DNA from: Minisyncoccota bacterium
GTDB taxonomy: Bacteria > Patescibacteriota > Microgenomatia > PFEM01 > JAFGMK01
DNA length: 64,000 nucleotides
Assembly (NCBI GenBank): GCA_016927565.1
Contig: JAFGMK010000006.1
Coordinates: 37,942-101,941, forward strand
Reading direction: 5' to 3'
The notes beneath the pieces were generated by a model. That model worked only from the letters and a program-made list of their open reading frames with translations, was not told the DNA's origin and did no database searches. Numbering within the stretch: position 1 is the stretch's first letter; every line of letters starts with the position of its first letter. The position numbers were made by a program, and so were the translations under genes. This document shows, one piece after another, positions 11,995-48,301 of this stretch.

Positions 11995-13524
11995 TTAGTA
12001 AAACTGATCTTTAGGTCTATATTGAAGCGCCTCAGCCAAATGGATAATTTTAATCTTTCCTTCCCCGGCCAAATCAGCAATGGTGCGGGCAATTTTAATG
12101 GTTTTAAAGTACGCCCGGGCAGAGAGATTCATTTGAGAAACAGCCTGACGAAGGAGACTAAGACAGTCTTTATCCAAGAGACAATGTTTTTTAATATCTT
12201 TGTTTTTCATTTCCGAGTTGGCTTTAATCTTTGTCTTTTTAAATCTTTGCCCCTGCTGATCCCGAGCAACCTGAACTCTTTTTTGAACGCTTTTTGAAGA
12301 TTCACTAATGACATTATCGCTGGTTAATTTTTCCACCGAAACAGCGGGCACTTGGACATGAAGGTCAATCCGGTCGAGGATCGGGCCGGAGATCTTTTTT
12401 TGGTAGCGGATAATCTGACCGGGCAAACACTTACATTCTTTTTTATCACTTCCAAGCCAACCGCAGGGGCAGGGATTCGAAGCGGCAATCAAAATAAACT
12501 CAGCCGGATAAGTAACTGTCCCTGCCGCTCGAGAAATGGTTACCCGACCATCCTCCATGGGTTGTCTCAGAGATTCCAAAACCGACCGGGGGAATTCCGG
12601 AAATTCGTCCAGAAACAGAACCCCCCGATGAGCCAAAGAAACCTCTCCCGGCCGGGGCCGGGCACCACCGCCGATTATTCCAACCTGGGAAACCGTGTGA
12701 TGAGGTGAACGAAAAGGACGGTTTTTAACAATTGCACTTTTCTCGGGTAAATTACCGGTAATCGAGTAAATTTTAGTTATCTCTAAAGCCTCTTCTTCGG
12801 TTAAATCAGGCAGAATTCCCGGCAAAGACCGGGCTAACATTGTTTTCCCGGAACCCGGTAAACCTTTTAGAAAAAGGTTGTGGCCTCCAGCGGCTGAGAT
12901 TTCCAGAGCTCTTTTGGCAAACTCTTGGCCCTTGATTTCTGAGAGGTCAAATTCGGCCTGAGGATCAGAAACCAAGGAAGAAAAGTCGGTTTTGGGAAAG
13001 GGCTTAACTTTTTTAAAACCGGAAAAATGACTAAAAAGCTTAACTAGATTAGGAATCGGGTAAACCTTAAGTCCGCCAACAACAGCGGCTTCAGAAGCAT
13101 CAACTTGGGGTAAAAAAACTTTTTTTAGCTTTTTCTTCTTGGCCAAAAGTGCTAAGGGCAAGACGCCGTTAGTGTGTCTTAAGGAGCCGTCGAGAGAGAG
13201 TTCGCCTAAAAAGAAGGTTTCTTTTAAGTTGGCGGCCATCTGGCCAGAGGCAATTAGGATTCCCACTGCCAAGGGTAGGTCATAAGCCGGGCCTTCTTTG
13301 GGCAGATTGGCGGGAGCCAAATTGATTGTAACCCGGTGGTCGGGAAACTTAGCTCCGGAGTTTCTAATAGCCGTAAAAACTCTTTCCTTGGCTTCTTCGA
13401 TGGCTTTGTTGGGCAGACCAACAATTTTAAATGAGGGAAAGCCTTTGGAGGAGACATCAACCTCAACCTCAACCAAAACCCCATCCAAACCAACGGTGGC
13501 GCCGGAAAAAACTTTGGCAAGCAT
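11995..13524 (-). CDS. comM: YifB/ComM family Mg-chelatase-like AAA+ ATPase
   Basis: N-terminal Lon-protease-like domain (MLAKVFSGATVGLDGVLVEVEVD), Walker A GLPGSGKT, and a C-terminal ChlI-like region. 509 aa. Confidence 0.9.
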   Translation of the reverse strand: MLAKVFSGATVGLDGVLVEVEVDVSSKGFPSFKIVGLPNKAIEEAKERVFTAIRNSGAKFPDHRVTINLAPANLPKEGPAYDLPLAVGILIASGQMAANLKETFFLGELSLDGSLRHTNGVLPLALLAKKKKLKKVFLPQVDASEAAVVGGLKVYPIPNLVKLFSHFSGFKKVKPFPKTDFSSLVSDPQAEFDLSEIKGQEFAKRALEISAAGGHNLFLKGLPGSGKTMLARSLPGILPDLTEEEALEITKIYSITGNLPEKSAIVKNRPFRSPHHTVSQVGIIGGGARPRPGEVSLAHRGVLFLDEFPEFPRSVLESLRQPMEDGRVTISRAAGTVTYPAEFILIAASNPCPCGWLGSDKKECKCLPGQIIRYQKKISGPILDRIDLHVQVPAVSVEKLTSDNVISESSKSVQKRVQVARDQQGQRFKKTKIKANSEMKNKDIKKHCLLDKDCLSLLRQAVSQMNLSARAYFKTIKIARTIADLAGEGKIKIIHLAEALQYRPKDQFY

Positions 13525-13545
13525 TAGTTTTTATGATAGCAAAAG
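13465..13545. repeat. copy A (genuine) of the comM 5'-end/promoter repeat
   Basis: AACCTCAACCAAAACCCCATCCAAACCAACGGTGGCGCCGGAAAAAACTTTGGCAAGCAT...TATGATAGCAAAAG covers the comM start codon and first ~20 codons. It recurs at 16175, 21465 and 22448. Confidence 0.85.
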
Positions 13546-13603
13546 GAGCTGTGAAGGGCAAAGCCTCAAGGGTTTAAAGCTAAAACATCTGAACGGGATT
13601 GAT

Positions 13604-14224
13604 TCATTTAAGAACATATCTTTCTATCTGAGAAACTACTAGCTCAGGTGTTAAACGAGTGGTGTCAATTGTCTCTGAATGAAAGTGTTTCCTGCCTATT
13701 TCGACAATTACTGCCTCCATAGCCATAAATCTTTCAGGCGCAGCAACAATCATTAAATCTCTCTCTGTGACTAGATCTGTTCTATCTTTACGCCTTTGCT
13801 CAAGCCGCTGCAGCCTTGCTTCTAGACTAGCAGTTAAAATAAACGAGTGATCAAAGAGGGGGTGTTGCGGCAACATATCAACTAGAACCTCGGGAATTCT
13901 TGGCGTTCCAGATACCGTGTGGAAAGCTAACGATCTTAAAATTATTGTCGAGTCCTGAATTGTATTAACTTCGGGCCATGTAAACATTTCCAAATCTGCC
14001 ATTAAAGCAACCGCATATAGGTTTCCTAAAATTTCTGGACTGAAGGAATCACTTCTACCAATCGAATCGGCTAATAATCGGATTATGTTTTCTTCTTGGC
14101 AAATACTTTTTCTTTGGACTATCCAGGGAGCTGATTGTCGGGAGGCAAAACTATTAGCTATTAAAGATTTACCAGCAAGATCCATTCCATCTAAATGGAT
14201 GAATTTAGCTCTTTCGGAATTCAT
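13604..14224 (-). CDS. thymidylate/dNMP kinase-like P-loop protein
   Basis: FIHLDGMDLAGKS fits GxxxxGKS in the position of the dTMP kinase P-loop. The LID-like and DR.x regions are weakly alignable to Tmk. The assignment is tentative. Confidence 0.45.
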   Translation of the reverse strand: MNSERAKFIHLDGMDLAGKSLIANSFASRQSAPWIVQRKSICQEENIIRLLADSIGRSDSFSPEILGNLYAVALMADLEMFTWPEVNTIQDSTIILRSLAFHTVSGTPRIPEVLVDMLPQHPLFDHSFILTASLEARLQRLEQRRKDRTDLVTERDLMIVAAPERFMAMEAVIVEIGRKHFHSETIDTTRLTPELVVSQIERYVLK

Positions 14225-14609
14225 TTAAGAAAACTTTGGTTTGGGGCACAATTTTTGAGGGCAACTTATTAAGAGAAAACCAGCGAACCTCCACTGTCTT
14301 ATCTAATGGCTTCGGGTTTCCGCTTAGATAATAAGATCTAAATCTTAGGTATATTTTTGCCTTTTTTTGATTAACTTCGGAAGATACTAGAAAATGATTC
14401 TTGATTCGAATATTGGTTTCCTCTAAAACTTCACGCGCCAAGCCGGAAGTTATTGTCTTATCCTTAAGCTCTATTTTCCCTCCGGGAATAACCCAAAAAC
14501 CAGGAAAAGTATCTTCATCTTGGCCACGCTTAACAAGTAAGACCTGGTCATCCTTAAAAATAGCGGTTGAAACATTAATTACAAATTGGGTGGCTTTTTT
14601 GTTTTTCAT
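14205..14609 (-). CDS. NUDIX hydrolase
   Basis: Nudix box GGKIELKDKTITSGLAREVLEETNI matches Gx5Ex7REUxEExGU. Confidence 0.75.
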   Translation of the reverse strand: MKNKKATQFVINVSTAIFKDDQVLLVKRGQDEDTFPGFWVIPGGKIELKDKTITSGLAREVLEETNIRIKNHFLVSSEVNQKKAKIYLRFRSYYLSGNPKPLDKTVEVRWFSLNKLPSKIVPQTKVFLNEFRKS

Positions 14610-14807
14610 CGGTGAAAATTATAATTTATTCAAAGGCAAGGTTACAGTCATTATTTTCAAAATTTCCCTTAAAGTAAACTATTTTATTTAATTAACTAAT
14701 TTATTTGTTTTTAAAACTGTATCATTAGCAATGTCCTAATGCTATTTATTACTTAGGCAATGTGTAAATAAGCTGCCCGTTATGATGCCTCTTGCTATAA
14801 TACATCC

Positions 14808-15368
14808 ATGGGTTATAAACGAATAAACTTCATTCTTGAAAAGAGCTTATATGCCCAGCTCAAGAAGCGCGCCGCAAAACAAGGTGTCCCAATTTCAAAA
14901 ACAGTTACTACTTGGATACAGAATTCCAATATTAACTCCGCTAAGATATCTCAACAGAAAATCACCGGAAGATTAACTACCTACAATTTCTGGGTTGATA
15001 AAGAAACCTATAAATTCCTAAAACAAATTTCGGGTGTAAAAAATGCTCAAATAAGCACCATTTTAAGATCATTAATATTTAACAATCTCAATCAAATAAA
15101 AGGCAGAAATGCCTGCGAAATTATTAAAATTAAAGCCGATAGATTATGGCTTGGCGGCCAGTTAATGCCCTTAAAAAAATATCTTTACTCCAACCTGGAT
15201 AGTCTAGATACTGACTCTCGACTTATACTTGCCCGGGTCTACTTAGAGCTGGGGATGTTTGACGAAGCGAAGCGCATAGGACGAGATGTGGCTAATAAGA
15301 AAAATAATCAGATTAACTCCATTAAGGCAAACACCATCCGGAGCAAATCCGAAGCTCTGCTTTATTAA
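14808..15368 (+). CDS. ribbon-helix-helix (CopG/Arc-like) domain protein, probably two RHH repeats
   Basis: N-terminal KRINFILEKSLYAQLKKRAAKQGVPISKTV has the RHH pattern. A second similar segment sits at residues ~60-95. TATAAT lies 6 nt upstream of the ATG, so the mRNA may be leaderless. Confidence 0.4.
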   Translation: MGYKRINFILEKSLYAQLKKRAAKQGVPISKTVTTWIQNSNINSAKISQQKITGRLTTYNFWVDKETYKFLKQISGVKNAQISTILRSLIFNNLNQIKGRNACEIIKIKADRLWLGGQLMPLKKYLYSNLDSLDTDSRLILARVYLELGMFDEAKRIGRDVANKKNNQINSIKANTIRSKSEALLY

Positions 15369-15409
15369 CTTTGGAAAACAAGAAAATTAGCCCAATGGCA
15401 ATATGATTT

Positions 15410-16039
15410 TTATTTTTTCATGCCTAGGAGCCGGTCCTTATCGATAGCGGCGTCATTTTCCATTAATTCACTCCACCACCACTCATTGGGATTGCTTTCT
15501 TTCATCAGGTAAACAATTTTTTTGGCAGAAGCAGTATTCATAGCCGGAACACGATCGTTAAAGTCAGACTCAAACCATTTTTGGGCCAGTTTATGTCCTT
15601 GCCACATCATTACCCACTCGGTGTAGATCTGGGTCAGGCTGTCGGCGTCTTTGACAATCTTGGCAATTCTGGTTTCTTGTCTTTCATACTCATCAAAAAG
15701 GGATTTGATGTTTTGGCCAAATTTGATACCTTCGACCTGTTTAGTTAAGGCTTTGTTTTCATCGATTTTGACATAATGCTTGGCGATAAAACCGATTTCG
15801 CCGGTCCTGGCTTCAACCAGATCATGGAAAAGAGCCATGGAAACACACTTGAGGCCGTCTTTATGGGATAAACCCTCCATCTGGGATAAAACATAAGCAA
15901 TAACACTACATTGATAGGAATGAGAAGCAACCGTATCAAAGGCATTACCCAGATGATACTGATGTGATCTTGGCATCAGCATTAAAAGACCCGATTGCTG
16001 AATCAAATGGAAAATTTTGGTTATCTCACTCTTAGTCAT
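15410..16039 (-). CDS. HD-domain phosphohydrolase, YfbR-like 5'-deoxynucleotidase family
   Basis: HSYQCSVIAYVL...ALFHDLVEARTGE is an H...HD metal-binding signature with YfbR-like spacing. Confidence 0.65.
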   Translation of the reverse strand: MTKSEITKIFHLIQQSGLLMLMPRSHQYHLGNAFDTVASHSYQCSVIAYVLSQMEGLSHKDGLKCVSMALFHDLVEARTGEIGFIAKHYVKIDENKALTKQVEGIKFGQNIKSLFDEYERQETRIAKIVKDADSLTQIYTEWVMMWQGHKLAQKWFESDFNDRVPAMNTASAKKIVYLMKESNPNEWWWSELMENDAAIDKDRLLGMKK

Positions 16040-16089
16040 AAGGTGAAATATACTATATCACAAAAATAACTCCTGATATTCCCTTTCTA

Positions 16090-16254
16090 ATTTTCTCCAA
16101 ACTTTGCTGTTTTGGTTCTTTATCTTGGAAATCTTTTTTTTAATTTCAAAGTGGCAGGTTAAATTGTGATCATAACCTCAACCAAAACCCCATCCAAACC
16201 AACAGTGGCGCCGGAAAAAACCTTTGAAAGCATTTGAGGTTATGATAGCAAAAT
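16090..16254. repeat. copy B of the comM 5'-end repeat (extended ~165 bp unit)
   Basis: Core 16175-16254 is near-identical to comM codons 1-20 plus ~25 bp upstream. An extra ~85 bp left arm is shared with copy C. It has an internal inverted repeat CATAACCTCAA...TTGAGGTTATG. Confidence 0.8.
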
Positions 16255-16306
16255 AGAGGGAGCAGAGCAAAGACTTGGAGGTGTAAATTTGACTTTTGAT
16301 TTTAGA

Positions 16307-16561
16307 CTAATAAATGATTGGGTTTCCTTCTGGGTCGTAAGTTAGAAATGGCCATTCAGTGCCAAGATGGCTTAATTCTTCCACTTCTCGGACAGGGTAT
16401 TGCCTATCACCCACCGTGATCCGGCCCTCTTCTAGACAACCTCCCTCGGCTAGGCTGGTAGCCTGACCAGCACTAAGAACAACCCCTTGAGGAGACCAGC
16501 CTCTTCGCAGGTCTTCTTGGAGCTTTTCACGAACTTGAGCACATGTTAATCGTTCGCACAT
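16307..16561 (-). CDS. hypothetical protein, G/E/R-rich composition atypical for the window
   Basis: 84-aa ORF inside the repeat-bounded segment 2. No motif recognised. Confidence 0.3.
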   Translation of the reverse strand: MCERLTCAQVREKLQEDLRRGWSPQGVVLSAGQATSLAEGGCLEEGRITVGDRQYPVREVEELSHLGTEWPFLTYDPEGNPIIY

Positions 16562-16647
16562 GATTAATTTATTAAGTAAATTAGTTGAAATAACAGTAAT
16601 ACTATTTTAAACTAGTTTTACTATAACTAAATAATTTTTCAGCTGAA

Positions 16648-17187
16648 ATGGAGTATAACACAGAAATAGCCTTTAGCAAAGACTTATGGGGTGAAATCGT
16701 TGAGGTTGAGTTTTGCCCCCAAGAAACACTTCCTTCTGAGGAGGAACTTCCTTTAACTGCAGTTTCTTGCATTGCTGTTACCGATGATAATAGAAGGGTT
16801 GTTTTGGCTAAAGTGCCCCGAGGTTGTGATCTGCCGGGTGGCCATATTGAAAGCGGCGAGAAGCCGGAGGACGCTCTAGCCCGTGAGCTAGAGGAAGAGA
16901 CCGGAGCTCGGTTTCAGGATAAACCGCACCTTATTGGGATTCGGAGAATGACTAAGAAGGCTGAGACTGTTCGAGTTCAACAATATCCGTTGGTAAGCGG
17001 GATTGCGGTATACATAGGAAGAGTAGTGTTGGATAAAAGCTTTGTTCCTCAGAAAGAATCATCGGAGAGAATTTTGGTCGATGTTCAAGAGATTGATCAG
17101 ATTCATCACCACTGGAGCCGGCAAGAGCAGGAGATTTTTGCTTATGCTAAAGAACGCTACCCTGATTACTTTCCCGACAAAATTTAA
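16648..17187 (+). CDS. NUDIX hydrolase
   Basis: Nudix box GGHIESGEKPEDALARELEEETGA. 179 aa. Converges on the 1368-aa gene with a 4-nt overlap. Confidence 0.75.
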   Translation: MEYNTEIAFSKDLWGEIVEVEFCPQETLPSEEELPLTAVSCIAVTDDNRRVVLAKVPRGCDLPGGHIESGEKPEDALARELEEETGARFQDKPHLIGIRRMTKKAETVRVQQYPLVSGIAVYIGRVVLDKSFVPQKESSERILVDVQEIDQIHHHWSRQEQEIFAYAKERYPDYFPDKI

Positions 17188-20100
17188 AGGCTGAATTTTT
17201 CTTTAATTATTGCAGCTGCTTTTTTGGCTCCTTCTAGACTTATTCGGGGTGATATCTCCGACATACGAGCAGCGTAGGTCGCTTGATCAGTAAGAGCTTG
17301 CTGAATCCCAGCATCAAGCCGGTCATTGTCTAGTCTGGAAAGAGGCAGGTTTTGGCCTAAGCCATGCTGTTCAACCAAAGCAGCATTATATTGCTGATCA
17401 GCGTTGGTAGTAATGGTAATAATCCCCCCCCTGCCCCTTTTCATAAAGGGATAAAGAGTACCGCTTCCACCCTGGCAGAGCAAGACATCGGCGTGGCTGG
17501 CGAGTTCAGGAAGATTGGCAAATTTTACGGGAACAAAGTTTTCCGGCAAATCAGCTGGTAATTCGGCATCGGCAGTAGTAACCATTATCATTGCCTCCGG
17601 TCTTTTTTGGGCAACTGCAAATAAGGCTTGATAAAGTTTGGGCTCTTTAATGCTCCCAAAACTACCAAAAATGATTTTTTTACCTTCTAATTTAGCCTGA
17701 GCAAGCTTAGCAACCGCTTCTTTGGTTGCCCCTTCGTCAACATACTGATTAATAATGGTTTCTGGCTGAATTGAACCGACGTAAGCCACCTCATTACCAT
17801 TGACCAGCTCTCGAAGCCGGGGGTCAAGATTAAAATCAGGGCCGACTCCCTGATTGACGAAAGCTTCATTATCGGCAATTATGGTCAGATCGGCAGCTTC
17901 CATATGTTGAAACCAGCTTGGATTATCGGTAGGCGGCTCGCCGATGTATTGTCTATGCGCTTCTTGATAAACCTGACGCAACTTAGGATCAAGCGGACGG
18001 TAGTACTTATCAGCCAATCTTTCTGCCTCAGGACCAAGTTTATGAATAAACGCCTCGGAGGTAAAACCAACATTGCTAAGATTGGTGATTGACACCGTGG
18101 GAACACCAGCCATTTTAGCAGCCATTAAAAGAGGGACATTATGATCTGAAAGAACAAATGGTGGCGGATTTTCTTCCAAGCGCTGGGCAATACGGACAAC
18201 ATTCCCGGCCATTTCTTTAACACTAAATTCTCCTTTGATTAAATGACCAGGATGGTAAAAATAATCATCAGATCTCTCAACTGTTACAGGCTTGCCTGGA
18301 GTTTCAAATCCCCGGCCAAGGTCAAAGACTTGCCGGCCACTTTCAGACCCACACATATTAGTTGGCACTCCGGCTCGGGCAAGTTCTAAAGCGACCTCAA
18401 GAGGTCGACCAGTATGAGCTGATACTCCAGGCAGATAACCCACCTCAACTGGCCTTGCCTGGCTTTTTTGTTCGCTAGCGATTGGGACTTCCGGATCTTC
18501 TTTTTCTTTTTTAGCCTGACTAAGCCTTTTCTCCTCGGCTCCCAACTCGTAGGCTGCATCAACTAAACTTGGCCAGACTTGATAGGTCCTAAGATAGCGC
18601 CGAACCCCCTTGCGGACTGACCGAATCTCTTTTGGCAAGGGCTGATTTTCGAGATCTTTCTCAACAGCTTCAATTGCTCCCTCAGGAAAGGCGTGAAGAA
18701 AACTTTCTAACTCATCAATAACCTGATCAGGCTCCGCAGAATCTATTTGCCTGGCAAATTCTACTTGTGCATCCAACAAACCTCTGAGTCTTTTTATTTC
18801 TTCAAGTTTTGCATGATTGGCCTCAAATGTTCGGATCGAAGCTTGGAGAGACTTGTCATCAGCAGGGGCAATTCCTAAAGCCTGCTTGGCTTCATTTTGA
18901 AGGCTAGGGCTACCATCAATAGCTTTAGAAATTTTGAATTGTTCCCTGGCGTAATTGTTGCTAAAAGCACCAACCATTTCGGCACCAAAAGCATCACCAC
19001 CACCCTGACGGGCAGCTCGCTGGTGCATTAGAGGCCTTTCTCGGCGGATAACCCGATTTGGATCAGCTGCGGTAGCTGCTTGAGCTCGAATAGCGCCGCT
19101 AAGATTATAGTCAAATATGCCCCCTAATGGAGTCGGGATTCCCTTAATCGCCTCACCTGAAAAAGTAATATTACCAAGATCAAGCTTACTGGCTTCTTGC
19201 CAATCTAAACCTTCTTTAAAATGGCGTTCCTCAGTCCACAGGGCGGCAATTGGCTGGCGGCGGACAGCCGCTTCAAGTATTTGAGGGAGCAATCGGTAGG
19301 CTTCGCTGGTTGACACCTGACGGAAGGCACCAGTTTCAGGATCAAAAATATTATAAGTACTAAAAGCGCCGCTATTTCTTTCAGTCATAATCTGAGTGGT
19401 TAGTTCCAGAGTATCCTTTACTAAAGAAATGGGGTTGCCGGTATGGCCAGTGTATCGGCCAATAGTGACTTGAGTTTCTGGATCTTCAAACCAGGCCGCT
19501 CTTTCAGCCAAGATATCGTGCTGATCTGTTCTTATAGTTCCTTCTTCGGTTCTAGTAAGAGTCCGATAGCGCTGATCGTCTTCATTAATGGTGATCGTTG
19601 TTTCCTTCAAGGGAACTCCTCGTTTACCAGCCTCATACGCCGCTGCTAAATAGCCAAAATTCTGAGTGCCGGCAATGCCTCCAAGCTCAGCTAAGGGATC
19701 AGCAAATTCAAAACTTTCTAAGTCCTCTCGAAGTGGCGCCTGAAGTCGGTCTTTTAATAAAGCCCGACTAAGCCAAAATTGATATCTTCTCTGTTTTTCG
19801 GTAAGGTCAGGATCTGCTTTTAGTTCTTGGGCAACTTTTTGGGCAAGTCTTTGAGCGAACCCAGTATTTTCCCTAACTCGGTAATAGCCGACTTGATATT
19901 TTTTAGCAACTTTGGCGATCTGTCTGGCAGCTTCATCATCCCAAGAATCATCAATAATAAAAACACCCACCTCACCTTGGTAAGCACTTTTTTGTCTAGA
20001 CTCAGCAAAATCTTCCAAAAATCGGTCAATTAATTCCGGGTTTTGTAAAGACTTGATACCAACCATTTGGAGCTTAGTCTCCCGAGGCTCTTCCTCCATT

Positions 20101-21290
20101 CGTTCTAAGTAACCTTCAATAAATGCTTTTACCCTGTCTGGTTCATGCATTTGAGGATCTGGCAGGGGCGGACTTTCGTACTTTTTCTTAAGAGCTTCGA
20201 CCTGATCTGGTCTGGCCGCCCACTTTTTTTTCCGAGGCTCGGTCCAATATTGGTCATACAAATACCATTCCTCAGCTCGTCTTTGCCAGGGAACTACTTC
20301 TTTGAGAAGGCGAATGCCCCTGGTTTCTTCACCAGCGACAAAGCCAACAAATTTATCAACGGCTGCTTTTACACCACCCGTTTTAATAGAATCATAATCA
20401 TCAGTCGCATCCTCAATCCCCCTAATGGCCACCTCATTTAGCAAAACAAGGCTTTGGGCTGAAAGACCCTTAATGGCAGTTTTTTCAGTAGGGTTTTTTC
20501 TGGTGATTACCGGGATATATTGACCTGAATCTTGATCTAAAACAATATCAGTGGCTGAGTTATAAACACCACTATATAAAGCTTCAACTAACTGGAGGCG
20601 GTTTTTGTAGACATTGAGGTGAAAATCGGGGTCACTACCTTCTTCAAGAATTCCGTGAGTATTTCTGGTTCCATTTGGCCACAGATCAACAAACTCCCCC
20701 TCTATCTCTGCTTCGGGATTAACATCATTTATCAGGCCAGTTAATCCCCGGTAGCTTAGGCCAACAGCGCTTTGACTATCCGCCAAAATTACTTTTTTAG
20801 CTTTGGCGACTCCCATTTGTCTTAAATAGCCTCGATAACGGTCATAAAAATCCGGGCCATGAGCAGTTCCCCTAACCAAGGGATTAAATTGGCCGTTGTA
20901 ATGGAGATATCTTGTTCTGCCGGGATCAATTTCTTGATATTCAGCTACTTTTTCCCTGAGTTTTTGGGCAGCAATATGAATCGGCAAACCATCTCTGGCC
21001 AAGGTCAAAGCAAGACTATCTGGTTCGTTTTTGAGCTTGGTTAATACTTTATCGGCTAAGAGGATATATACCGGAGCAACAACTTCCCTTGTCTGGGAGT
21101 AAACCTCTTTTGCCAAGGCGCGGAAGCGCTCCTCTTGTTCTGGTGGAACCTTCCTTTCTTTGACCAGGTGATCGAGATACTGACCAAGCCTATCCGAATC
21201 CTGCTCGTGTTCCTGGCCTGTTTCTTGGTCGGCAATTGGTTTGCTTGGCTGATCCTCGATTGGCTTAACCCCGTTAGCACCTTCTCCCAT
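17184..21290 (-). CDS. 1368-aa multidomain protein: unknown N-terminal ~880 aa with a possible GT-A-like segment, plus a C-terminal GT1-family (MGT/UGT-like, GT-B fold) glycosyltransferase domain
   Basis: The C-terminal ~480 aa has a GT1 N-lobe motif (YLPGVSAHTGRPLEVALELARAGVP) and a C-lobe nucleotide-sugar motif (HADVLLCQGGSGTLYPFMKRGRGGIITITTNADQQYNAALVEQHGLG). A mid-protein segment (VGVFIIDDSWDDEAARQIAKVAKKYQVGYYRVRENTGFA) weakly resembles a GT2 N-terminal region. The protein is rich in A/E/R/Q/G/P, unlike the neighbouring proteins. Confidence 0.65.
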   Translation of the reverse strand: MGEGANGVKPIEDQPSKPIADQETGQEHEQDSDRLGQYLDHLVKERKVPPEQEERFRALAKEVYSQTREVVAPVYILLADKVLTKLKNEPDSLALTLARDGLPIHIAAQKLREKVAEYQEIDPGRTRYLHYNGQFNPLVRGTAHGPDFYDRYRGYLRQMGVAKAKKVILADSQSAVGLSYRGLTGLINDVNPEAEIEGEFVDLWPNGTRNTHGILEEGSDPDFHLNVYKNRLQLVEALYSGVYNSATDIVLDQDSGQYIPVITRKNPTEKTAIKGLSAQSLVLLNEVAIRGIEDATDDYDSIKTGGVKAAVDKFVGFVAGEETRGIRLLKEVVPWQRRAEEWYLYDQYWTEPRKKKWAARPDQVEALKKKYESPPLPDPQMHEPDRVKAFIEGYLERMEEEPRETKLQMVGIKSLQNPELIDRFLEDFAESRQKSAYQGEVGVFIIDDSWDDEAARQIAKVAKKYQVGYYRVRENTGFAQRLAQKVAQELKADPDLTEKQRRYQFWLSRALLKDRLQAPLREDLESFEFADPLAELGGIAGTQNFGYLAAAYEAGKRGVPLKETTITINEDDQRYRTLTRTEEGTIRTDQHDILAERAAWFEDPETQVTIGRYTGHTGNPISLVKDTLELTTQIMTERNSGAFSTYNIFDPETGAFRQVSTSEAYRLLPQILEAAVRRQPIAALWTEERHFKEGLDWQEASKLDLGNITFSGEAIKGIPTPLGGIFDYNLSGAIRAQAATAADPNRVIRRERPLMHQRAARQGGGDAFGAEMVGAFSNNYAREQFKISKAIDGSPSLQNEAKQALGIAPADDKSLQASIRTFEANHAKLEEIKRLRGLLDAQVEFARQIDSAEPDQVIDELESFLHAFPEGAIEAVEKDLENQPLPKEIRSVRKGVRRYLRTYQVWPSLVDAAYELGAEEKRLSQAKKEKEDPEVPIASEQKSQARPVEVGYLPGVSAHTGRPLEVALELARAGVPTNMCGSESGRQVFDLGRGFETPGKPVTVERSDDYFYHPGHLIKGEFSVKEMAGNVVRIAQRLEENPPPFVLSDHNVPLLMAAKMAGVPTVSITNLSNVGFTSEAFIHKLGPEAERLADKYYRPLDPKLRQVYQEAHRQYIGEPPTDNPSWFQHMEAADLTIIADNEAFVNQGVGPDFNLDPRLRELVNGNEVAYVGSIQPETIINQYVDEGATKEAVAKLAQAKLEGKKIIFGSFGSIKEPKLYQALFAVAQKRPEAMIMVTTADAELPADLPENFVPVKFANLPELASHADVLLCQGGSGTLYPFMKRGRGGIITITTNADQQYNAALVEQHGLGQNLPLSRLDNDRLDAGIQQALTDQATYAARMSEISPRISLEGAKKAAAIIKEKFSL

Positions 21291-21364
21291 TATATAATGC
21301 TAGCTCATTAGCTGAAAAATTAAAATCCCTACTTTCTCGAACCCTATCATAAACACAAGCCCCG

Positions 21365-21544
21365 ATATTCCTTTTCAGGTTTTTTCCAAATCTCACTCTT
21401 TTGATTCTTAATCTTAGGAATCCTCTTTTAAACCTCAAAGTGGCAGGTTAAATTGTGATTCATAACCTCAACCAAAACCCCATCCAAACCAACGGTGGCG
21501 CCGGAAAAAACCTTTGAAAGCATTTGAGGTTATGATAGCAAAAG
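21365..21544. repeat. copy C of the comM 5'-end repeat (extended unit, near-identical to copy B)
   Basis: Core is 21465-21544. Left arm 21378-21464 matches 16090-16174. Confidence 0.8.
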
Positions 21545-21671
21545 AATGCTAAGGACACAAAGATCCTAAGACGTGAACTCAAATCAATCTAAGGGCGGAG
21601 AATCGCTAAAGGAAAGGAGTTGTGTTATTATGACGGGGTAAAGACTATTTTAAAACATTTGATTTTTTAAT

Positions 21672-22418
21672 ATGAACTCTAAACCCCAAAAGGAGGTTTC
21701 TAAGTCAGGAATACCAATTTTGCGCCATCAGCAAGCAGCTAAACCGCCTAAAAAAACTTCCTATCCTACCGAAGAATACCTCAAAGTTTTGGATAAACAC
21801 ATTAAAAAATATATTGGGGAGGCAAAAACTGTTTTTCATGAATTGATTTCGGAGTATGTCCACTTGGATGTTTACTTTATTGAGGCTAGTAAAAAAAGAA
21901 ATTTTCATACCCTAGTGACCGCAGGAATGAGCCTTTTGCCAATGAATGTTCCTCCCGGATTAGAAAGTCATCGCTTTGCCGAACTTTTAATTTGTCTACC
22001 GGCTAGCTGGCCTTTGAGTAAAGAAGCTTTTAAAAAAGAAGCTAATTACTGGCCGGTAAGACAACTTAAGATGTTGGCACGCCTGCCCCATGTTTACCGA
22101 ACCTTTCTTTACATTGGTCATACTGTGCCCAATGGTAACCCTCCCAAGCCTCTTGCTAATAATACCCGCTTTGATTGTCTGCTTTTACTCCCACCAATTC
22201 TTTTCCCCAAAGAATTCAGCTCTCTTAAAATCAACAAAGATAAAACAGTTCATTTTTACGCTCTAATCCCTCTCTACCCTGAAGAAACTGCCTTTAAACT
22301 AGACCAGGGAACGTCTAAGTTATTCCGGAAGTTGGACCAGGCCCGAGTTACCGAGTTGGTAGATATTAACAGACCCAGTTTGATTAGCAAAAAAAATAAC
22401 AAAGGGCAGGCAGCATAA
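21672..22418 (+). CDS. SUFU-like (suppressor-of-fused family) domain protein
   Basis: FHTLVTAGMSLLPMNVPPG, WPVRQLKMLARLPHVY, GHTVPNGNPPKPLANNTRFDCLLLLPP and FYALIPLYPEE match the conserved blocks of bacterial SUFU-family proteins. These are recalled from memory and were not searched. Confidence 0.5.
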   Translation: MNSKPQKEVSKSGIPILRHQQAAKPPKKTSYPTEEYLKVLDKHIKKYIGEAKTVFHELISEYVHLDVYFIEASKKRNFHTLVTAGMSLLPMNVPPGLESHRFAELLICLPASWPLSKEAFKKEANYWPVRQLKMLARLPHVYRTFLYIGHTVPNGNPPKPLANNTRFDCLLLLPPILFPKEFSSLKINKDKTVHFYALIPLYPEETAFKLDQGTSKLFRKLDQARVTELVDINRPSLISKKNNKGQAA

Positions 22419-22447
22419 ACTTAAAGAAAACCTTTTAAAGAGACAGC

Positions 22448-22525
22448 AACCTCAACCAAAACCCCATCCAAGCCAACGTGGCGTCGGAAAAAACTTTAGC
22501 CAGCATTTGAAATCATGACAGCAAA
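22448..22525. repeat. copy D of the comM 5'-end repeat (most diverged, 1-nt deletion)
   Basis: AACCTCAACCAAAACCCCATCCAAGCCAACGTGGCGTCGGAAAAAACTTTAGCCAGCAT...CATGACAGCAAAAA. Confidence 0.75.
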
Positions 22526-22596
22526 AAAAGAGAGGGAGAGTAAAATTCCTGAGATGTAAAGCTAAACTACCCTAAGGGTGTAAACTGATAAAAATA

Positions 22597-22636
22597 ACGA
22601 TCCCGGATCGTCTGCAGATTTCGATCCGGGATCGGG
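22597..22636. repeat. dispersed palindromic repeat, copy 1 (CGATCCCGGATCG-TCTGCAGATTT-CGATCCGGGATCG)
   Basis: Perfect 13-bp inverted arms around a palindromic PstI-like loop. The flanks (GATAAAGATAACG on the left, GCTCCGGA..GTCAAAGAA on the right) are shared with the other copies, so the full unit is ~75 bp. Confidence 0.8.
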
Positions 22637-22895
22637 GAAGCTCCGGATAGTCAAAGAACATGAGCAGTTACGTACTGGGTTGGCACCTGTCTCCGGAACG
22701 GCCAAGCCGGAATCGAACCTATCAATGGAAAATGTCAGTCAATTTTTCCTGGCTTTTGTTGCCGTGAATCGCCGCTGCCCTAAAACCACTTCTGACTAGG
22801 TTTATGGCAAGCTTATTTACCCCCCTCAATAGTGTATGGAAAATCTCGATCTTCTTCTTTTACCAACATGGAAAAAAATTTACGAAAACGGCCAG

Positions 22896-23336
22896 TTAAA
22901 TTATCCTTTTTTTAATCCTATGGCTAAAAAAATAGCCGGTCACCCCAACCGCCCCAGTTAAAAAACCCAAAGGGCAGACAATAGTTGAGGTTAGAAAAAA
23001 GGTAACATGAAGGGCTTCGGCGAAAAAATGAAGGATTTGGATTTTTTCAGTGATTATGGCTAAGGCATAAAGCAGATTGTGGAAAACGACGCCGGGGAAA
23101 AAAGCCGCCGCCGAAACCCCACTAAGAAGCAGGAATTTTTTTAGGCGATTTTTAAACTTTCTTCTTCTAATGACTATGATTAAGCCAAAACCCAAAAAGG
23201 AAAAAACCGCCAACGGCAGAAGAAACAAAAAAGTGCCTCGGAATAATTCTCTGATTGGTTCAAGAAAAAATTGCGCCACCCCAAAAATAAAACTCAAAAG
23301 CAACCACCAGAACAACCGCGGTATTTTTTGCTTCAT
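22896..23336 (-). CDS. small integral membrane protein (4 predicted TM helices)
   Basis: 146-aa hydrophobic ORF, 11 nt downstream of the 220-aa secreted-protein gene. Probably co-transcribed with it. Confidence 0.4.
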   Translation of the reverse strand: MKQKIPRLFWWLLLSFIFGVAQFFLEPIRELFRGTFLFLLPLAVFSFLGFGLIIVIRRRKFKNRLKKFLLLSGVSAAAFFPGVVFHNLLYALAIITEKIQILHFFAEALHVTFFLTSTIVCPLGFLTGAVGVTGYFFSHRIKKRII

Positions 23337-23347
23337 CTTAAAAAAGC

Positions 23348-24010
23348 TTAGCGAAACTGACCAAAGCCCGGGCCGACCGGCGTACGATATTGCAGGCCGT
23401 GACTACCGGCACAAGAATCATTCTCAACCTTTTGAATAACAGCAAATTCATCCCAGATTACCGGCCCAAGCTCCCGACGGTTTTTCTCATACCACATTCC
23501 ATTCTCTTTATAAGCGCCACTAGGCGCTGCTGCAATTTTGACAAAATAATTCCATTGGCAAGTCTCGCCGTCCTGTTCATACTCACCGGACTGATGGTTG
23601 GTCAACCAGGCACCGGATCCAACATAGCCGGCAAAACCATAATGACGGTCAAGCAAGCCATCACCATCACAATCTCTGTTTGAAAGCCAGGCGTCATTCC
23701 ACTTCATAGCCAGCCTGACGTCCTTATAAGGTTGACACCAGGCCGCATTCCGGTAGGAATCACAATAAAAACCATTGAATGAGCGGGCTTGGTAGTTATA
23801 ACCCCACCCGTCATAACCGGAAGTAATCGGATAACCGTCACTAGTCAAAAGATCCCCTTGTTGAATAGTTTTACAGGCAGTAAATTTTCCTAAAACCCTG
23901 GAAGGAACAGCCCGAGGCACAAGCGGCAGCAGGGCTACATTAAAAGCCAATACAATTCCGCCGACTACTAAAGCCACCGGCAAAACCGTATGTAAAATTT
24001 TATTTTCCAT
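23348..24010 (-). CDS. secreted or membrane-anchored Gly/Trp/Tyr/Asp/Cys-rich protein
   Basis: N-terminal TM/signal peptide (VLPVALVVGGIVLAFNVALLPLV). The mature part has about 8 Cys and DCDGDGLLD. Its GC-rich codon usage is atypical for the window. Confidence 0.45.
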   Translation of the reverse strand: MENKILHTVLPVALVVGGIVLAFNVALLPLVPRAVPSRVLGKFTACKTIQQGDLLTSDGYPITSGYDGWGYNYQARSFNGFYCDSYRNAAWCQPYKDVRLAMKWNDAWLSNRDCDGDGLLDRHYGFAGYVGSGAWLTNHQSGEYEQDGETCQWNYFVKIAAAPSGAYKENGMWYEKNRRELGPVIWDEFAVIQKVENDSCAGSHGLQYRTPVGPGFGQFR

Positions 24011-24160
24011 CCCCTTTCACCCCCTTTCTTTATCATTGCCTAATTCAAGGTAACAAACCTCAACGATGACTGTCAAGGCACACAATTAAACACCCATAAA
24101 AAAACCGCCTCTTAAAGCGGGCTTCCGAATTAATTCTTTTAGAAGCAAATTTTAAAAACT

Positions 24161-24244
24161 TTAAAGCAGCTCAAAGGCAACTGTTTTTTCCAAAGCCAGA
24201 TGCATTACCACCAAAGCCAAAAAAAAGAAAAGAGGAAATAAGAT
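24161..24244 (-). CDS. 27-aa hydrophobic peptide (MKKILFPLFFFLALVVMHLALGKNSCL)
   Basis: Strong SD GGAGGT 5 nt upstream of the ATG. Signal-peptide-like. Lies immediately upstream of the secreted-protein and membrane-protein genes. Very short, so it may not be a real gene. Confidence 0.25.
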   Translation of the reverse strand: MLFPLFFFLALVVMHLALEKTVAFELL

Positions 24245-24371
24245 TTTCTTCATCTTCGACCTCCAATTTTTGTTTTTTAAAGCTTTTCTTTTATACCACA
24301 ATCAACTGATTTTTAACAACTTCATTCTCCCGATCCCAACAAAAAAAAGGCCCTGATCCGAAAACAGTCTG

Positions 24372-24881
24372 CTAAACCCAACAGACTTTATCCTGATCGT
24401 ATTCTGCCTCCGTATGCTGAGGCGGATCCTGGGCCGGATAACCAATCGGAAAAATTCCCAAAATCCTTTTTGACGGAGGAATCGCCAAAATCCGGCGGAC
24501 AAATTCCTCCCGATCGGCTCCGGTTTGAGTTTTTCCCTGATAGACATTAGCCCAACAAGTAGCTAATCCCTGATTGGCAGTTTCAAGATAAATATGAGCC
24601 CCGGCAATTGAGGCGTCCACCAGCCAATACTTGCTCTGTCCGGGGTCAGCCAAAATCACAATTGCAATCGGAGCGCCGCCGATAAATTTTTGCCAGGGGC
24701 CACACTGGGACAACTTTGACAATTTAACTCGGCTCTTAACCACCACAAACTCAACCGGATGGAGACTGTTAGCCGAAGGGGCAACCATGGCAGCAGCCAA
24801 AATTGACCTTATTTGCCGATCATTTACCGGCTCAGAAGTGTATTGCCTGATGCTTCTTCTTTTTTTAAAAAGTTCGTTCAT
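24372..24881 (-). CDS. nitroreductase family protein
   Basis: MNELFKKRRSIRQYTSEPV...AAAMVAPSANSLHPVEFVVV is a nitroreductase fold signature. Start moved to the ATG at 24881 (GAAAGG SD). The ORF track extends it to 24959. Confidence 0.7.
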   Translation of the reverse strand: MNELFKKRRSIRQYTSEPVNDRQIRSILAAAMVAPSANSLHPVEFVVVKSRVKLSKLSQCGPWQKFIGGAPIAIVILADPGQSKYWLVDASIAGAHIYLETANQGLATCWANVYQGKTQTGADREEFVRRILAIPPSKRILGIFPIGYPAQDPPQHTEAEYDQDKVCWV

Positions 24882-25196
24882 AAAATTACCTTTCTTTTCC
24901 ATCCTATCAAAAAAGCCAAAGAACAGCCAGTCCCCAAGTCCTTCCCGGACTTGGGGCAAAAAGGAAATTTTCTGGCTATCATTTTATTTCCCCGGCGGCT
25001 TATTTTTCTTTTTATGGGCTATGCAAGTAGTACACACTTCTTTTCACCTCCTTTAAACTATTTTTCAATTTTTAACTAACTAAAGATAACAAAGGAAGTC
25101 TTCGAATTCTGTAAGCCAGCTAACATTATTATCAATCATCTTGGCTGTCTGAACTGCTCTTATTATCAAGACGAGCCTTCTCCTTTAGATATCTTC

Positions 25197-25234: not shown

Positions 25235-25798
25235 ATGGAAGACTCCCGTTTAAACAAGGTTCGCGATTTTTACAAAAATCACCACCGATTACCCTCTTAC
25301 TCGGAAATGCTAAGATTGTTTAAACTGGCTTCTAAGAATGCGATTTATAAAATTGTTAAAAAATGGCAGGAAACCGGCCTGGTAGAAAAAATCAACCATA
25401 AACTGGCTCCCACCAAAGATTTTTTCCGCCTGCCATTTTTTGGTTTGGTCAAGGCCGGCTTCCCCACCGGCGCTGACGAAGACCACCGCTTCTTAAGCCT
25501 GGAAGATTATTTAATCGATAAACCCCAAGCCTCTTTCTTACTAACGGTTGACGGCGATTCTCTCTCCGGCATCGGCATCTTACCGGGAGACTTGGCCATC
25601 ATCGAGAAAAGAACCGAAGCCCGGACAGAAGAGATTGTCTTAGCTTTAATCGACAATCATTGGAGCCTAAAAATTCTCCGGCGGCAAAACGGCCGGCTCC
25701 GGCTGGAATCAGCCAATGAAAAGTATCCCCCCCTCTACCCCAAAGAAGATTTACAGATCTTCGGAGTTTTAAAAGGAGTAATTAGAAAAATTAAATAA
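25235..25798 (+). CDS. lexA: LexA-like repressor (wHTH plus S24 peptidase)
   Basis: N-terminal wHTH. VKAG/FP carries the Ala-Gly cleavage site, GDSLSGIGI carries the Ser nucleophile, and LKILRR carries the Lys. Confidence 0.7.
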   Translation: MEDSRLNKVRDFYKNHHRLPSYSEMLRLFKLASKNAIYKIVKKWQETGLVEKINHKLAPTKDFFRLPFFGLVKAGFPTGADEDHRFLSLEDYLIDKPQASFLLTVDGDSLSGIGILPGDLAIIEKRTEARTEEIVLALIDNHWSLKILRRQNGRLRLESANEKYPPLYPKEDLQIFGVLKGVIRKIK

Positions 25799-25803
25799 AA
25801 TCC

Positions 25804-34871: not shown

Positions 34872-34910
34872 TTCGATCCCGGATCGAAATCTGCAGTCCA
34901 TCCGGAACCG
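34872..34910. repeat. dispersed palindromic repeat, copy 2 (reverse orientation, second arm degenerate)
   Basis: TTCGATCCCGGATCGAAATCTGCAGTCCATCCGGAACCG. Located in the 5' region of the pilin gene. Confidence 0.65.
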
Positions 34911-48234: not shown

Positions 48235-48301
48235 TAAATTTAATATAACATTCTTTAGAAAGCCGATCAAGGTAAATTACTCGCACTCTTTAACAAAGAT
48301 A

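What the first reader, a model, noticed from the sequence alone, without database searches (positions are those of the whole stretch)
13465..22525. Four direct copies of the comM promoter and first 20 codons bound three gene segments: an att-like insertion hotspot
The genuine comM 5' end is copy A (13465-13545). It reappears in the same orientation at 16175-16254 (B), 21465-21544 (C) and 22448-22525 (D).

Each copy carries ~25 bp upstream of the ATG, the ATG itself and about 20 codons. Copies B and C would encode MLSKVFSGATVGLDGVLVEV and then stop. Copy D has a 1-nt deletion.

B and C also share an extra ~85-bp left arm, and each carries an internal inverted repeat (CATAACCTCAA...TTGAGGTTATG). 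That makes them ~165-bp near-identical direct repeats flanking a 5.2-kb segment.

This pattern is what serial site-specific integration into the 5' end of a gene produces. The incoming element brings a replacement promoter and N-terminus, so every insertion leaves a displaced partial copy behind. comM is a known insertion hotspot in other bacteria, for example Acinetobacter AbaR islands.

No integrase or recombinase is encoded in the segments. The elements would therefore have to be mobilised in trans, or be decayed, or reflect some other mechanism. An integron-like cassette array was considered and judged less likely.
Basis: partly seen in the sequence, partly recalled or inferred. Interest (0 to 1): 0.85.

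Follow-up and report, generated by a model that had tools for sequence, protein, structure and literature searches.

The report
Tandem gene islets at comM start
In an uncultivated CPR ("Pacebacteria") bacterium, three small recombinase-less gene blocks lie in a row in front of the competence-helicase gene comM; each is bounded by a copy of comM's promoter and first ~20 codons, which is the known footprint of repeated insertion at a gene start, though how the blocks moved is unresolved.

Summary
comM (11995-13524, minus strand) has its promoter and first 20 codons repeated three more times upstream in the same orientation. A 22-mer occurs 4 times against 0 expected by chance. Independent Logan assemblies of run SRR13394437 reproduce all three inter-repeat segments at 100%.

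- A is the live gene start.
- D is a decayed pseudo-start: mutated -10, G8D, a frameshift, a 6-nt deletion and a stop.
- B and C share a sharply bounded ~109-nt block (98% identical) enclosed by a perfect 12-13-bp inverted repeat. Their flanks are only 59-72% identical.

The cargo is unrelated between units and absent next to comM in relatives: dTMP-kinase-like, two NUDIX, HD, an Arc-like regulator, a 1368-aa glycosyltransferase and SUFU.

The best reading is serial insertion at comM's 5' end, each insertion bringing a replacement promoter and N-terminus. That matches dusA-type islands and tandem integrative-element arrays. No recombinase is encoded in the units or anywhere in the 64-kb window, and no empty-site allele or mobile copy was found. 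The agent could be a trans-acting site-specific recombinase or homologous "end displacement", and this stays open.

One unrelated genome (L060, Anaerolineae) shows the same recombinase-less pattern. I rate it a new variant of a known kind, of moderate interest.

The parts
11995..13524 (-). comM (YifB-family Mg-chelatase-like AAA+ ATPase, 509 aa), intact; the target gene
   Evidence: ORF. Pfam Mg_chelatase, ChlI and Mg_chelatase_C. TIGR00368 at 602 bits. 100% identical to P0001, a 'Candidatus Pacebacteria' MAG protein.
13465..13578 (-). Copy A: the live comM promoter (TTGCCC, 17 nt, TG-n-TATCAT, then 9 nt to the ATG) and codons 1-20. High-identity core 13465-13545.
   Evidence: Promoter-like site 13561-13533 with TG extension. 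Same promoter layout as native comM in relatives.
13579..16055 (.). Unit E1 cargo: p206 (dTMP-kinase-like, 13604-14224 -), NUDIX134 (14205-14609 -), p186 (Arc-like RHH N-terminus, 14808-15368 +), HD209 (YfbR-like HD hydrolase, 15410-16039 -). GC 0.378.
   Evidence: Independently assembled as Logan contig L176.
16056..16173 (-). B arm: a ~115-nt sequence homologous to the C arm, lying between the comM fragment and HD209. Its first 28 nt are identical to C and the rest is 72% identical. Ends in an extended -10-like TGATATAGT.
16174..16287 (-). Copy B: promoter flank (16255-16287) plus core (16174-16254). A 24-aa mini-ORF runs from 16233 to 16159. A perfect 13-bp inverted repeat brackets the comM-derived part (arms about 16169-16181 and 16234-16246).
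16288..21344 (.). Unit E2 cargo: p84 (16307-16561 -), NUDIX179 (16648-17187 +), p1368 (17184-21290 -; C-terminal GT-B/MGT-like glycosyltransferase, N-terminal ~1150 aa unannotated). GC 0.45.
   Evidence: Independently assembled as Logan contig L089.
21345..21463 (-). C arm, homologous to the B arm, followed by p1368
21464..21595 (-). Copy C: promoter flank (21545-21595) plus core (21464-21544). A 31-aa mini-ORF starts at 21523. A perfect 12-bp inverted repeat is present (arms 21460-21471 and 21524-21535).
21672..22418 (+). Unit E3 cargo: a single SUFU-domain protein (248 aa), opposite in orientation to comM. Its stop codon lies 8 nt from the end of D's comM homology.
   Evidence: Logan contig L175.
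22426..22578 (-). Copy D: a decayed, displaced comM start. Promoter flank 22526-22578, core 22448-22525, extra comM homology 22426-22447. The -10 is TGTCAT. It also has G8D, a 1-nt deletion, a 6-nt deletion and a premature stop.
22596..22640 (-). REP-like, terminator-like hairpin (GATCCCGGATCG...CGATCCGGGATC followed by a T-run) that ends the upstream p146 operon just before copy D. It marks the native position of the comM promoter.
   Evidence: Terminator-like site. Member of a 4-copy hairpin family.
22896..24959 (-). Conserved upstream flank: p146, p220 and a nitroreductase. p220 and the nitroreductase are syntenic upstream of comM in L081, and the nitroreductase also in L085.

Best explanation
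The locus is a tandem array of three small gene islets that lack any recombinase gene: E3 about 0.9 kb, E2 about 5.2 kb, E1 about 2.6 kb. They were inserted one after another at the 5' end of comM.

Each incoming DNA carried its own copy of a comM promoter plus the first ~20-30 codons. comM therefore stayed intact and expressed, while the previous start was pushed upstream as a truncated fragment.

- D is the oldest, decayed original start. It sits in the native position behind the terminator of the upstream operon.
- B and C are unit-to-unit junctions, equivalent to attP-type sites. Each has one unit's promoter-side arm, a ~109-nt conserved core bounded by a 12-13-bp inverted repeat, and the next unit's ~115-nt arm.
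- A is the current comM junction.
- The displaced promoters at B and C now read into the cargo genes HD209 and p1368.

Shown: the anatomy, the decay gradient, unrelated cargo, absence of the cargo next to comM in relatives, and absence of any recombinase in the 64-kb window.

Inferred: that the joining was site-specific recombination by a recombinase encoded elsewhere and acting in trans, as with cis-mobilizable elements or decayed islands. It is also inferred that the conserved inverted-repeat-bounded core is its recognition site.
For: 1. Four co-oriented copies of the comM promoter and 5' CDS, against 0 expected. comM is intact.
2. All copies keep the native promoter layout, TG-n-TATCAT then 9 nt then ATG, as seen in relatives.
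3. Decay gradient. D carries a -10 mutation, G8D at a residue invariant in 60 relatives, a frameshift, a 6-nt deletion and a stop. B and C retain a plausible functional allele, since MLSK... also occurs in P0039.
4. Two of D's synonymous differences from A (CTG, GCT) match the natural allele of relative L082. This suggests the copies are alleles from different lineages, not local duplicates.
5. The units share no DNA or protein homology beyond the repeats. The cargo is absent from 85 other comM neighbourhoods, while the flanks p220 and nitroreductase are syntenic.
6. B and C share a 109-nt block at 98% identity, with flanks at 59% and 72% (P = 5e-10 and 6e-8). It is enclosed by an inverted repeat that depends on about 10 B/C-specific bases found in no natural comM allele. 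It folds significantly as ssDNA, z = -2.5 and -4.1. This looks like an evolved site, not leftover homology.
7. Published precedent: dusA islands replace the promoter and 5' end of their target (PMC4482086), tandem arrays of integrative elements are described (PMC7192596), and so are recombinase-less cis-mobilizable elements (PMC5704250).
8. Independent assemblies reproduce every segment.
Against: - No tyrosine or serine recombinase lies in the units or anywhere in the 64-kb window. The only transposase-like gene is a RAYT-like Y1 protein about 22 kb away.
- No empty-site allele, conspecific strain or free copy of the arm or core was found in the metagenome, viral, phage or plasmid collections.
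- The closest homologues of the cargo genes p1368 and HD209 have no arm or comM fragment upstream, so there is no evidence of a mobile family.
- HD209 belongs to a family common in CPR genomes, and unit GC content is unremarkable.
- D lacks the arm expected of an attL of the same element family.
- Breakpoints differ: +60 for B and C, about +94 for D, +177 in L060. A single fixed crossover site is therefore not demonstrated.
- An inverted repeat with arms 52 nt apart fits no known recombinase core site.
Confidence: 0.5

Rival explanations
1. Homologous 'gene-start displacement'. DNA from related lineages, taken up by transformation or present as a circle, carries a comM promoter and 5' end plus whatever lay upstream of it. 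It recombines through homology in comM on one side. On the other side it joins illegitimately, or the whole circle integrates by a single Campbell-type crossover. The old start remains as a truncated direct repeat. This mirrors the C-terminal displacement that builds orphan-tip arrays in rhs and cdi loci. No dedicated recombinase is needed.
For: - No recombinase in the units or the window.
- All four copies are homologous across the whole native promoter and 5' CDS, from about -75 to +60 or +94, as expected if they are comM alleles from relatives.
- Variable breakpoints: +60, about +94, and +177 in L060.
- L060 has a 237-nt repeat, perfect over its last 200 nt, around one gene and with no recombinase within 10 kb.
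- The nitroreductase-to-comM interval varies among relatives even where there are no repeats.
- The cargo includes ordinary CPR gene families.
- Published precedent for end displacement in rhs genes (PMC2935791).
- The window encodes type IV pilus and competence-related genes and RecX.
Against: - B and C share the same breakpoint and a homologous arm, yet unrelated genes follow. This points to a portable site rather than independent illegitimate joins.
- The inverted repeat built from B/C-specific bases has no role in this model.
- None of the five closest relatives has any of the cargo genes upstream of comM, so no donor arrangement is known.
Confidence: 0.27
2. In-situ duplication of the comM promoter and leader module. 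This would arise by slippage or unequal crossing-over and be retained because it places neighbouring genes under comM-like control. No horizontal transfer is involved.
For: Each copy retains a plausible promoter, and B and C are followed by co-oriented genes. Unit GC content is close to the genome background.
Against: - The units have no homology to each other beyond the repeats.
- The cargo is absent from this locus in relatives.
- D faces a convergent gene and has decayed.
- Three independent duplications that each include 20-30 codons of coding sequence would be needed.
- D's synonymous differences match a natural foreign allele.
Confidence: 0.08
3. Integron-like cassette array, or a CALIN (cluster of attC sites lacking an integrase). 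B and C would be attC-like hairpin sites recombined as folded single strands by an IntI-type integrase encoded elsewhere.
For: B and C fold into long hairpins. The outer bases of the inverted repeat read ...AAC/GTT..., and the comM homology of B and C ends right after GTT.
Against: - No intI or attI in the 64-kb window.
- The R''/R' boxes match the consensus at only 5 of 7 positions.
- The stem is perfect, without the extrahelical bases that define attC.
- Only two such sites exist, 5.3 kb apart.
- The units contain several genes in both orientations and carry their own promoters.
- The repeats derive from a host gene start.
Confidence: 0.04
4. Assembly artefact. Strain variants carrying different single insertions at comM were collapsed by the assembler into one tandem array.
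For: The k=31 Logan contigs all break inside the shared 46-nt block, so they do not confirm the order of units. Only one sample contains this organism.
Against: - Each junction has unique flanks on both sides within 110 nt, which 150-nt reads or large k can resolve.
- L175 reads through D into both neighbours.
- B carries its own SNP.
- Even if the array were collapsed, the variants would still be comM-start insertions.
Confidence: 0.05

Closest known systems
dusA-associated genomic islands (DAI integrase family; Farrugia et al. 2015, PMC4482086)
   Same: Insertion into the 5' end of a conserved housekeeping gene. The island supplies a replacement promoter and N-terminal codons, and the original 5' end is left as a displaced fragment that forms a direct repeat.
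   Different: dusA islands always encode a tyrosine integrase next to the att site. They average about 43 kb and have 21-28-bp att repeats. Here there is no integrase, the units are 0.9-5.2 kb, the repeats are 80-200 nt, and there are three units in tandem.
Tandem arrays of integrative genetic elements, and cis-mobilizable elements (CIMEs) formed by site-specific accretion (PMC7192596, PMC5704250)
   Same: Several unrelated units lie head to tail, each bounded by a copy of the target-derived site. Internal junctions are attP-like. Some units lack their own recombination genes.
   Different: Known arrays contain at least one integrase-bearing element that can mobilise the others. None is present in this array or within 64 kb. 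Excision has not been shown.
rhs / cdi orphan-module arrays formed by C-terminal displacement (Jackson et al. 2009, PMC2935791)
   Same: Successive incoming gene ends displace the previous one. Truncated fragments of the conserved gene remain as direct repeats separating variable cargo, and no dedicated recombinase is involved.
   Different: That process acts at the 3' end of toxin genes and carries toxin-tip and immunity pairs. Here it would act at the 5' end of a helicase gene and carry promoters. The conserved inverted-repeat-bounded core in B and C has no counterpart.
Integron cassette arrays / CALINs
   Same: An array of small gene units separated by similar hairpin-forming repeats, with no recombinase inside the units.
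   Different: No IntI or attI. The sites lack attC consensus boxes and extrahelical bases. The units have several genes, both orientations and their own promoters. The repeats derive from a host gene start.
AbaR/Tn6022-type resistance islands in Acinetobacter comM
   Same: The same target gene family (comM).
   Different: AbaR elements are Tn7-like transposons (tniABC-type genes, short target-site duplication) that interrupt comM internally and inactivate it. Here comM stays intact, no transposition genes are present, and the repeats are long gene-start copies.

Membership tests
Tandem array of site-specific integrative elements (islands/IGEs) | Each unit is flanked by direct repeats derived from the target gene | tested here: met
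   Four co-oriented copies of the comM promoter and 5' CDS bound three units.
Tandem array of site-specific integrative elements (islands/IGEs) | The target gene is restored by element-borne sequence | tested here: met
   comM is full length with a complete TIGR00368 match and a native-type promoter at copy A.
Tandem array of site-specific integrative elements (islands/IGEs) | An integrase (tyrosine or serine recombinase) is encoded in at least one unit, next to an att site | tested here: not met
   Pfam, PADLOC, PHROGs, NCBIfam and PDB searches of all cargo proteins found none. Pfam on all ORFs of 130 aa or more in the window found none. The N-terminal ~1150 aa of p1368, and p84, remain unannotated.
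Tandem array of site-specific integrative elements (islands/IGEs) | Presence/absence polymorphism: an empty site in related genomes | tested here: inconclusive
   Relatives with 71-79% ComM identity lack both cargo and repeats, and share the flank genes. No conspecific genome exists in the collections.
Tandem array of site-specific integrative elements (islands/IGEs) | Excision to a circular form with a reconstituted attP and attB | not testable with these tools
   This needs the reads of SRR13394437. Only assembled contigs are available.
Cis-mobilizable elements (CIME) | Flanked by att sites and lacking recombination and transfer genes | tested here: met
Cis-mobilizable elements (CIME) | A cognate integrase-bearing helper element uses the same att site, typically adjacent | tested here: not met
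   No such element lies in the array or elsewhere in the 64-kb window. The rest of the genome was not available.
Integron / CALIN | An IntI integrase and attI adjacent to the array | tested here: not met
   No tyrosine recombinase in the window.
Integron / CALIN | attC sites with R''(RYYYAAC)/R'(GTTRRRY) boxes and extrahelical bases in an imperfect stem | tested here: not met
   TCATAAC/GTTATGA match at 5 of 7 positions each. The stem is a perfect 12-13 bp with no bulges. Only B and C have it.
Tn7-like AbaR-type insertion in comM | Transposition genes (tniA/B/C-like), short target-site duplication, interruption of comM | tested here: not met
   No such genes. comM is intact. The repeats are 80-200 nt gene-start copies.
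Rhs/CDI-type displacement arrays | Displaced truncated ends of the conserved gene are retained as direct repeats between variable cargo | tested here: met
   D, C and B are truncated comM starts. D is decayed. Here it is the 5' end that is displaced, not the 3' end.
Rhs/CDI-type displacement arrays | The cargo consists of toxin-tip and immunity pairs | tested here: not met
   The cargo is nucleotide-metabolism enzymes and a glycosyltransferase. Only E3 carries a SUFU-domain protein, a fold that I recall being used by some immunity proteins.

The most novel reading that the evidence does not exclude
The B/C-type site is a ~109-nt core made of comM's -10 region and first 20 codons, enclosed by an evolved 12-13-bp inverted repeat and followed by a promoter-bearing arm. 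It may be the attachment site of a previously undescribed gene-capture system in CPR bacteria. In that system, small recombinase-less, promoter-carrying cassettes would be inserted serially at the start of the competence-helicase gene. A trans-acting enzyme, possibly one that recognises hairpins, would do the joining. Alternatively the cell's own transformation and recombination machinery would do it. Functionally this would be an integron-like platform whose 'attI' is a gene start. The independent, recombinase-less 237-nt case in an Anaerolineae genome (L060) would then suggest that the phenomenon is broader than one lineage.
Probability: 0.12. Interest if true: 0.8.

Novelty: new variant of a known kind. 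Interest (0 to 1): 0.4.

Why it matters
Almost nothing is known about how CPR/Patescibacteria acquire accessory genes. Their genomes are tiny and carry few recognisable mobile elements.

This locus shows repeated gene gain at one defined point, the start of comM, with the target gene kept intact each time and the displaced promoters re-used to drive cargo. If the joining is site-specific, the conserved inverted-repeat-bounded core is a ready-made substrate for finding the responsible recombinase. If it is homologous end displacement, it extends a mechanism known from toxin-gene 3' ends to gene starts and links it to natural transformation.

As it stands, this is a single-genome observation with one distant parallel. 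Its main value is as a well-defined lead, not as an established system.

Tried and rejected
1. Strain variants or an empty site. An exact look-up of ComM found nothing. A metagenome scan with the 22-mer found only the native comM of another genome (L086) and a chance coding match in an RNA-virus RdRp contig (L087, same as L088).
2. The arm in viral contigs: no match. The cargo block against deposited phages and plasmids: no match.
3. Repeated comM starts in relatives. Of 80 GTDB loci plus 5 closer loci, only L060 is positive at DNA level. The protein-level screen added no further positives, and L060 itself was not re-detected in that screen.
4. Cargo homologues as tracers of a mobile family. 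p1368 has one homologue (56%), in a different context. The closest HD209 homologues (72-74%) have no arm or comM fragment upstream.
5. RNA explanations. There are no Rfam hits between 11 and 26 kb and no tRNA or tmRNA in the window. The comM mRNA is probably leaderless, so the left inverted-repeat arm would not be transcribed (inference).
6. Large serine recombinases next to comM in IMG/VR contigs L091 and L092. These are real, but related recombinases are not at comM and no second comM fragment was found. This is not evidence about the present array.
7. A link to the REP/RAYT system. The hairpin family next to D is a different sequence and is not part of the comM repeat.
8. Integron, Tn7/AbaR and Xer/dif-module readings were rejected on their defining features (see the membership test).

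Full report
**1. Observation**

The window comes from a CPR/Patescibacteria genome. Its ComM is 100% identical to a protein of a 'Candidatus Pacebacteria' MAG on a 150,754-bp contig, and the nearest reference genomes are Woesebacteria or Microgenomates at 65% or less.

comM (11995-13524, minus strand) is a full-length YifB-family AAA+ ATPase. The 22-mer GGATGGGGTTTTGGTTGAGGTT occurs four times, with none expected in shuffles. The repeat finder reports one four-copy family plus the separate B/C arm family.

Three independent Logan contigs from run SRR13394437 reproduce each inter-repeat segment at 100% identity:
- L176 covers window 16199-13483.
- L089 covers 21489-16224.
- L175 covers 21514-22624 and reads through copy D into both neighbours.

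These contigs break inside the shared block, so the order of units rests on the MAG assembly.

**2. Fine anatomy**

All four copies keep the layout of native comM promoters in relatives: a TTGnnn element, 17-18 nt, a TG-extended TATCAT, 9 nt, then ATG. That layout implies a leaderless or nearly leaderless mRNA.

- A, B and C share a 46-nt block that is identical apart from one mismatch in B.
- B and C are 98% identical over a sharply bounded ~109-nt block running from -25 to +60 of comM plus the first 28 nt of the arm. Their upstream flanks are only 59% identical and the remaining 90 nt of the arm 72% (Fisher P = 5e-10 and 6e-8).
- That block is enclosed by a perfect inverted repeat, 13 bp in B and 12 bp in C. 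About 10 of the paired bases are B/C-specific: AACCTCAA before the ATG, which is found in no natural comM allele, and ATGA at the start of the arm. The fold is significant as ssDNA (z = -2.5 and -4.1) and is absent from A and D.
- The B and C frames run on to 24 and 31 aa rather than stopping at codon 20.
- D's homology extends about 30 nt further into comM, to 22426, which is 8 nt from the SUFU stop codon.
- D is clearly decayed. Its -10 is TGTCAT. It has G8D at a glycine invariant in 60 relatives, a 1-nt frameshift, a 6-nt deletion relative to the universal ...VEVEVD... and a premature stop.
- D sits directly behind a terminator-like hairpin that ends the upstream operon. That is the native promoter position.

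**3. Cargo and context**

- E1 carries a dTMP-kinase-like protein, a NUDIX hydrolase, an Arc-like (RHH) fusion protein and a YfbR-like HD hydrolase.
- E2 carries an 84-aa protein, a second and only distantly related NUDIX, and a 1368-aa protein with a C-terminal GT-B/MGT-like domain.
- E3 carries one SUFU-domain protein.

The units share nothing beyond the repeats. None of the cargo occurs near comM in 85 other comM loci. The genes beyond D (p220 and a nitroreductase) are syntenic upstream of comM in L081, and the nitroreductase also in L085. Those genomes have different genes in the interval. The D-to-A block is therefore inserted DNA in a variable interval.

No tyrosine or serine recombinase is encoded in the units or anywhere in the 64-kb window. 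The only transposase-like gene is a RAYT-like Y1 protein at 44828-45505.

**4. Search for mobility**

Nothing was found.
- No exact ComM elsewhere.
- No conspecific contigs in the metagenome collection. The only other 22-mer hit is a chance coding match in an RNA-virus contig.
- The arm is absent from viral contigs. The cargo block is absent from deposited phages and plasmids.
- The single homologue of p1368 (56%) and the closest homologues of HD209 (72-74%) have neither the arm nor a comM fragment upstream. HD209 belongs to a family common in CPR genomes.

Among about 85 other comM loci, only L060 (an Anaerolineae MAG) repeats its own comM start. It has a 237-nt direct repeat from -60 to codon 59. 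All seven mismatches lie in the first 37 nt, and 200 nt of perfect identity follow. The repeat brackets one unannotated 538-aa gene, with no recombinase within 10 kb.

Two IMG/VR contigs have large serine recombinases just upstream of an intact comM. Related recombinases are not at comM, and no second comM fragment was seen. This stays a side observation.

**5. Interpretation**

The anatomy is the footprint expected when DNA that carries its own copy of a gene start is repeatedly joined to that gene start. The gene stays intact, and each earlier start is displaced as a truncated direct repeat. The oldest one, D, is the most decayed and lies outermost.

This behaviour is documented for islands that target the 5' end of dusA (PMC4482086). 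Tandem arrays are documented in PMC7192596, and recombinase-less cis-mobilizable units in PMC5704250. In such an array the internal junctions are attP-like. That explains why B and C resemble each other on both sides of the comM fragment while A and D do not.

The sharply bounded, inverted-repeat-enclosed 109-nt block, built partly from bases foreign to every natural comM allele, looks like an evolved site. This tips me towards site-specific recombination by an enzyme encoded elsewhere. That step is inference.

The main rival is homologous 'start displacement', which mirrors rhs C-terminal displacement (PMC2935791). It needs no recombinase, and it explains the full-promoter homology of all copies, the variable breakpoints and the L060 case. 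It does not explain the shared B/C breakpoint, the shared arm followed by unrelated genes, or the inverted repeat.

In-situ duplication, an integron/CALIN reading and an assembly artefact are each disfavoured by specific tests (see the membership table).

**6. Novelty and score**

The kind is known: displaced target-gene fragments bounding tandem inserted units, with replacement of a gene's 5' end.

The variant features are:
- every unit is small and lacks a recombinase
- the repeats are long (80-200 nt)
- the internal junctions share a conserved core bounded by an inverted repeat
- the host is a CPR bacterium, in which integrative elements are poorly described
- an unrelated phylum shows one parallel

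Against this, there is only one genome, no evidence of mobility and no mechanism. I rate it a new variant of a known kind with interest 0.4. The more radical reading, a hairpin-site gene-capture platform at a gene start, has a probability of roughly 0.12.

Noticed in passing
window 22590-22658, 34875-34902 (-), 40128-40196, 48295-48363: A family of REP-like hairpin repeats (core GATCGTCTGCAGATTTCGATCCGGGATC, 12-bp stem). There are four copies in apparently intergenic positions, against 0 expected by chance. One acts as the terminator-like hairpin just upstream of copy D.
   Followed up: partly
window 44828-45505 (-): A 225-aa IS200-like Y1 (HUH) protein. Its best NCBIfam match is REP-associated tyrosine transposase (57.8 bits, below the cutoff of 80). 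It may be the partner of the REP-like hairpins. It is the only transposase-like gene in the window.
   Followed up: partly
L060 7714-7950 and 9941-10177: An Anaerolineae MAG (AnMBR.bin251) has a 237-nt direct repeat of its own comM promoter plus 59 codons. The last 200 nt are identical. The repeat brackets a single unannotated 538-aa gene, and no recombinase lies within 10 kb. This is an independent parallel to the window's array.
   Followed up: yes
L092 4252-7853 (same contig as L093); L091 4458-6062: Two IMG/VR 'viral' contigs carry large serine recombinases co-oriented with, and just upstream of, an intact comM start. L092 has two, ending 148 nt before the ATG. comM's 5' side may be a serine-integrase target in other uncultivated bacteria. 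Related recombinases in L094 and L095 are not at comM.
   Followed up: partly
window 17184-21290 (-): p1368 is a near-orphan giant protein, with only one homologue (56%) among 5.8 billion clustered proteins. It has a C-terminal macrolide-glycosyltransferase-like GT-B domain and about 1150 unannotated N-terminal residues.
   Followed up: partly
window 22579-24959 compared with L081 873-6861 and L085 6660-9951: The interval between a conserved nitroreductase gene and comM holds different genes in each of three related genomes. It is therefore a general hotspot of gene flux, even where no comM-start repeats exist.
   Followed up: partly
window 25235-27036 (+): A LexA-like S24 peptidase gene is immediately followed by a DinB/ImpB-family polymerase gene, forming an SOS-type pair about 3 kb beyond the array.
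   Followed up: no
L088 556-577: The exact 22-mer also occurs in a 5.2-kb RNA-virus-like contig (RdRp polyprotein), where it encodes ...EDGVLVEV.... This is a chance match and a caution for short-pattern scans.
   Followed up: yes
L090 1-120 (-): The only homologue of p1368 lies next to a truncated HTH-type ORF at the contig end that looks like the N-terminus of a transposase or resolvase. This may hint that the gene travels with mobile DNA elsewhere.
   Followed up: no
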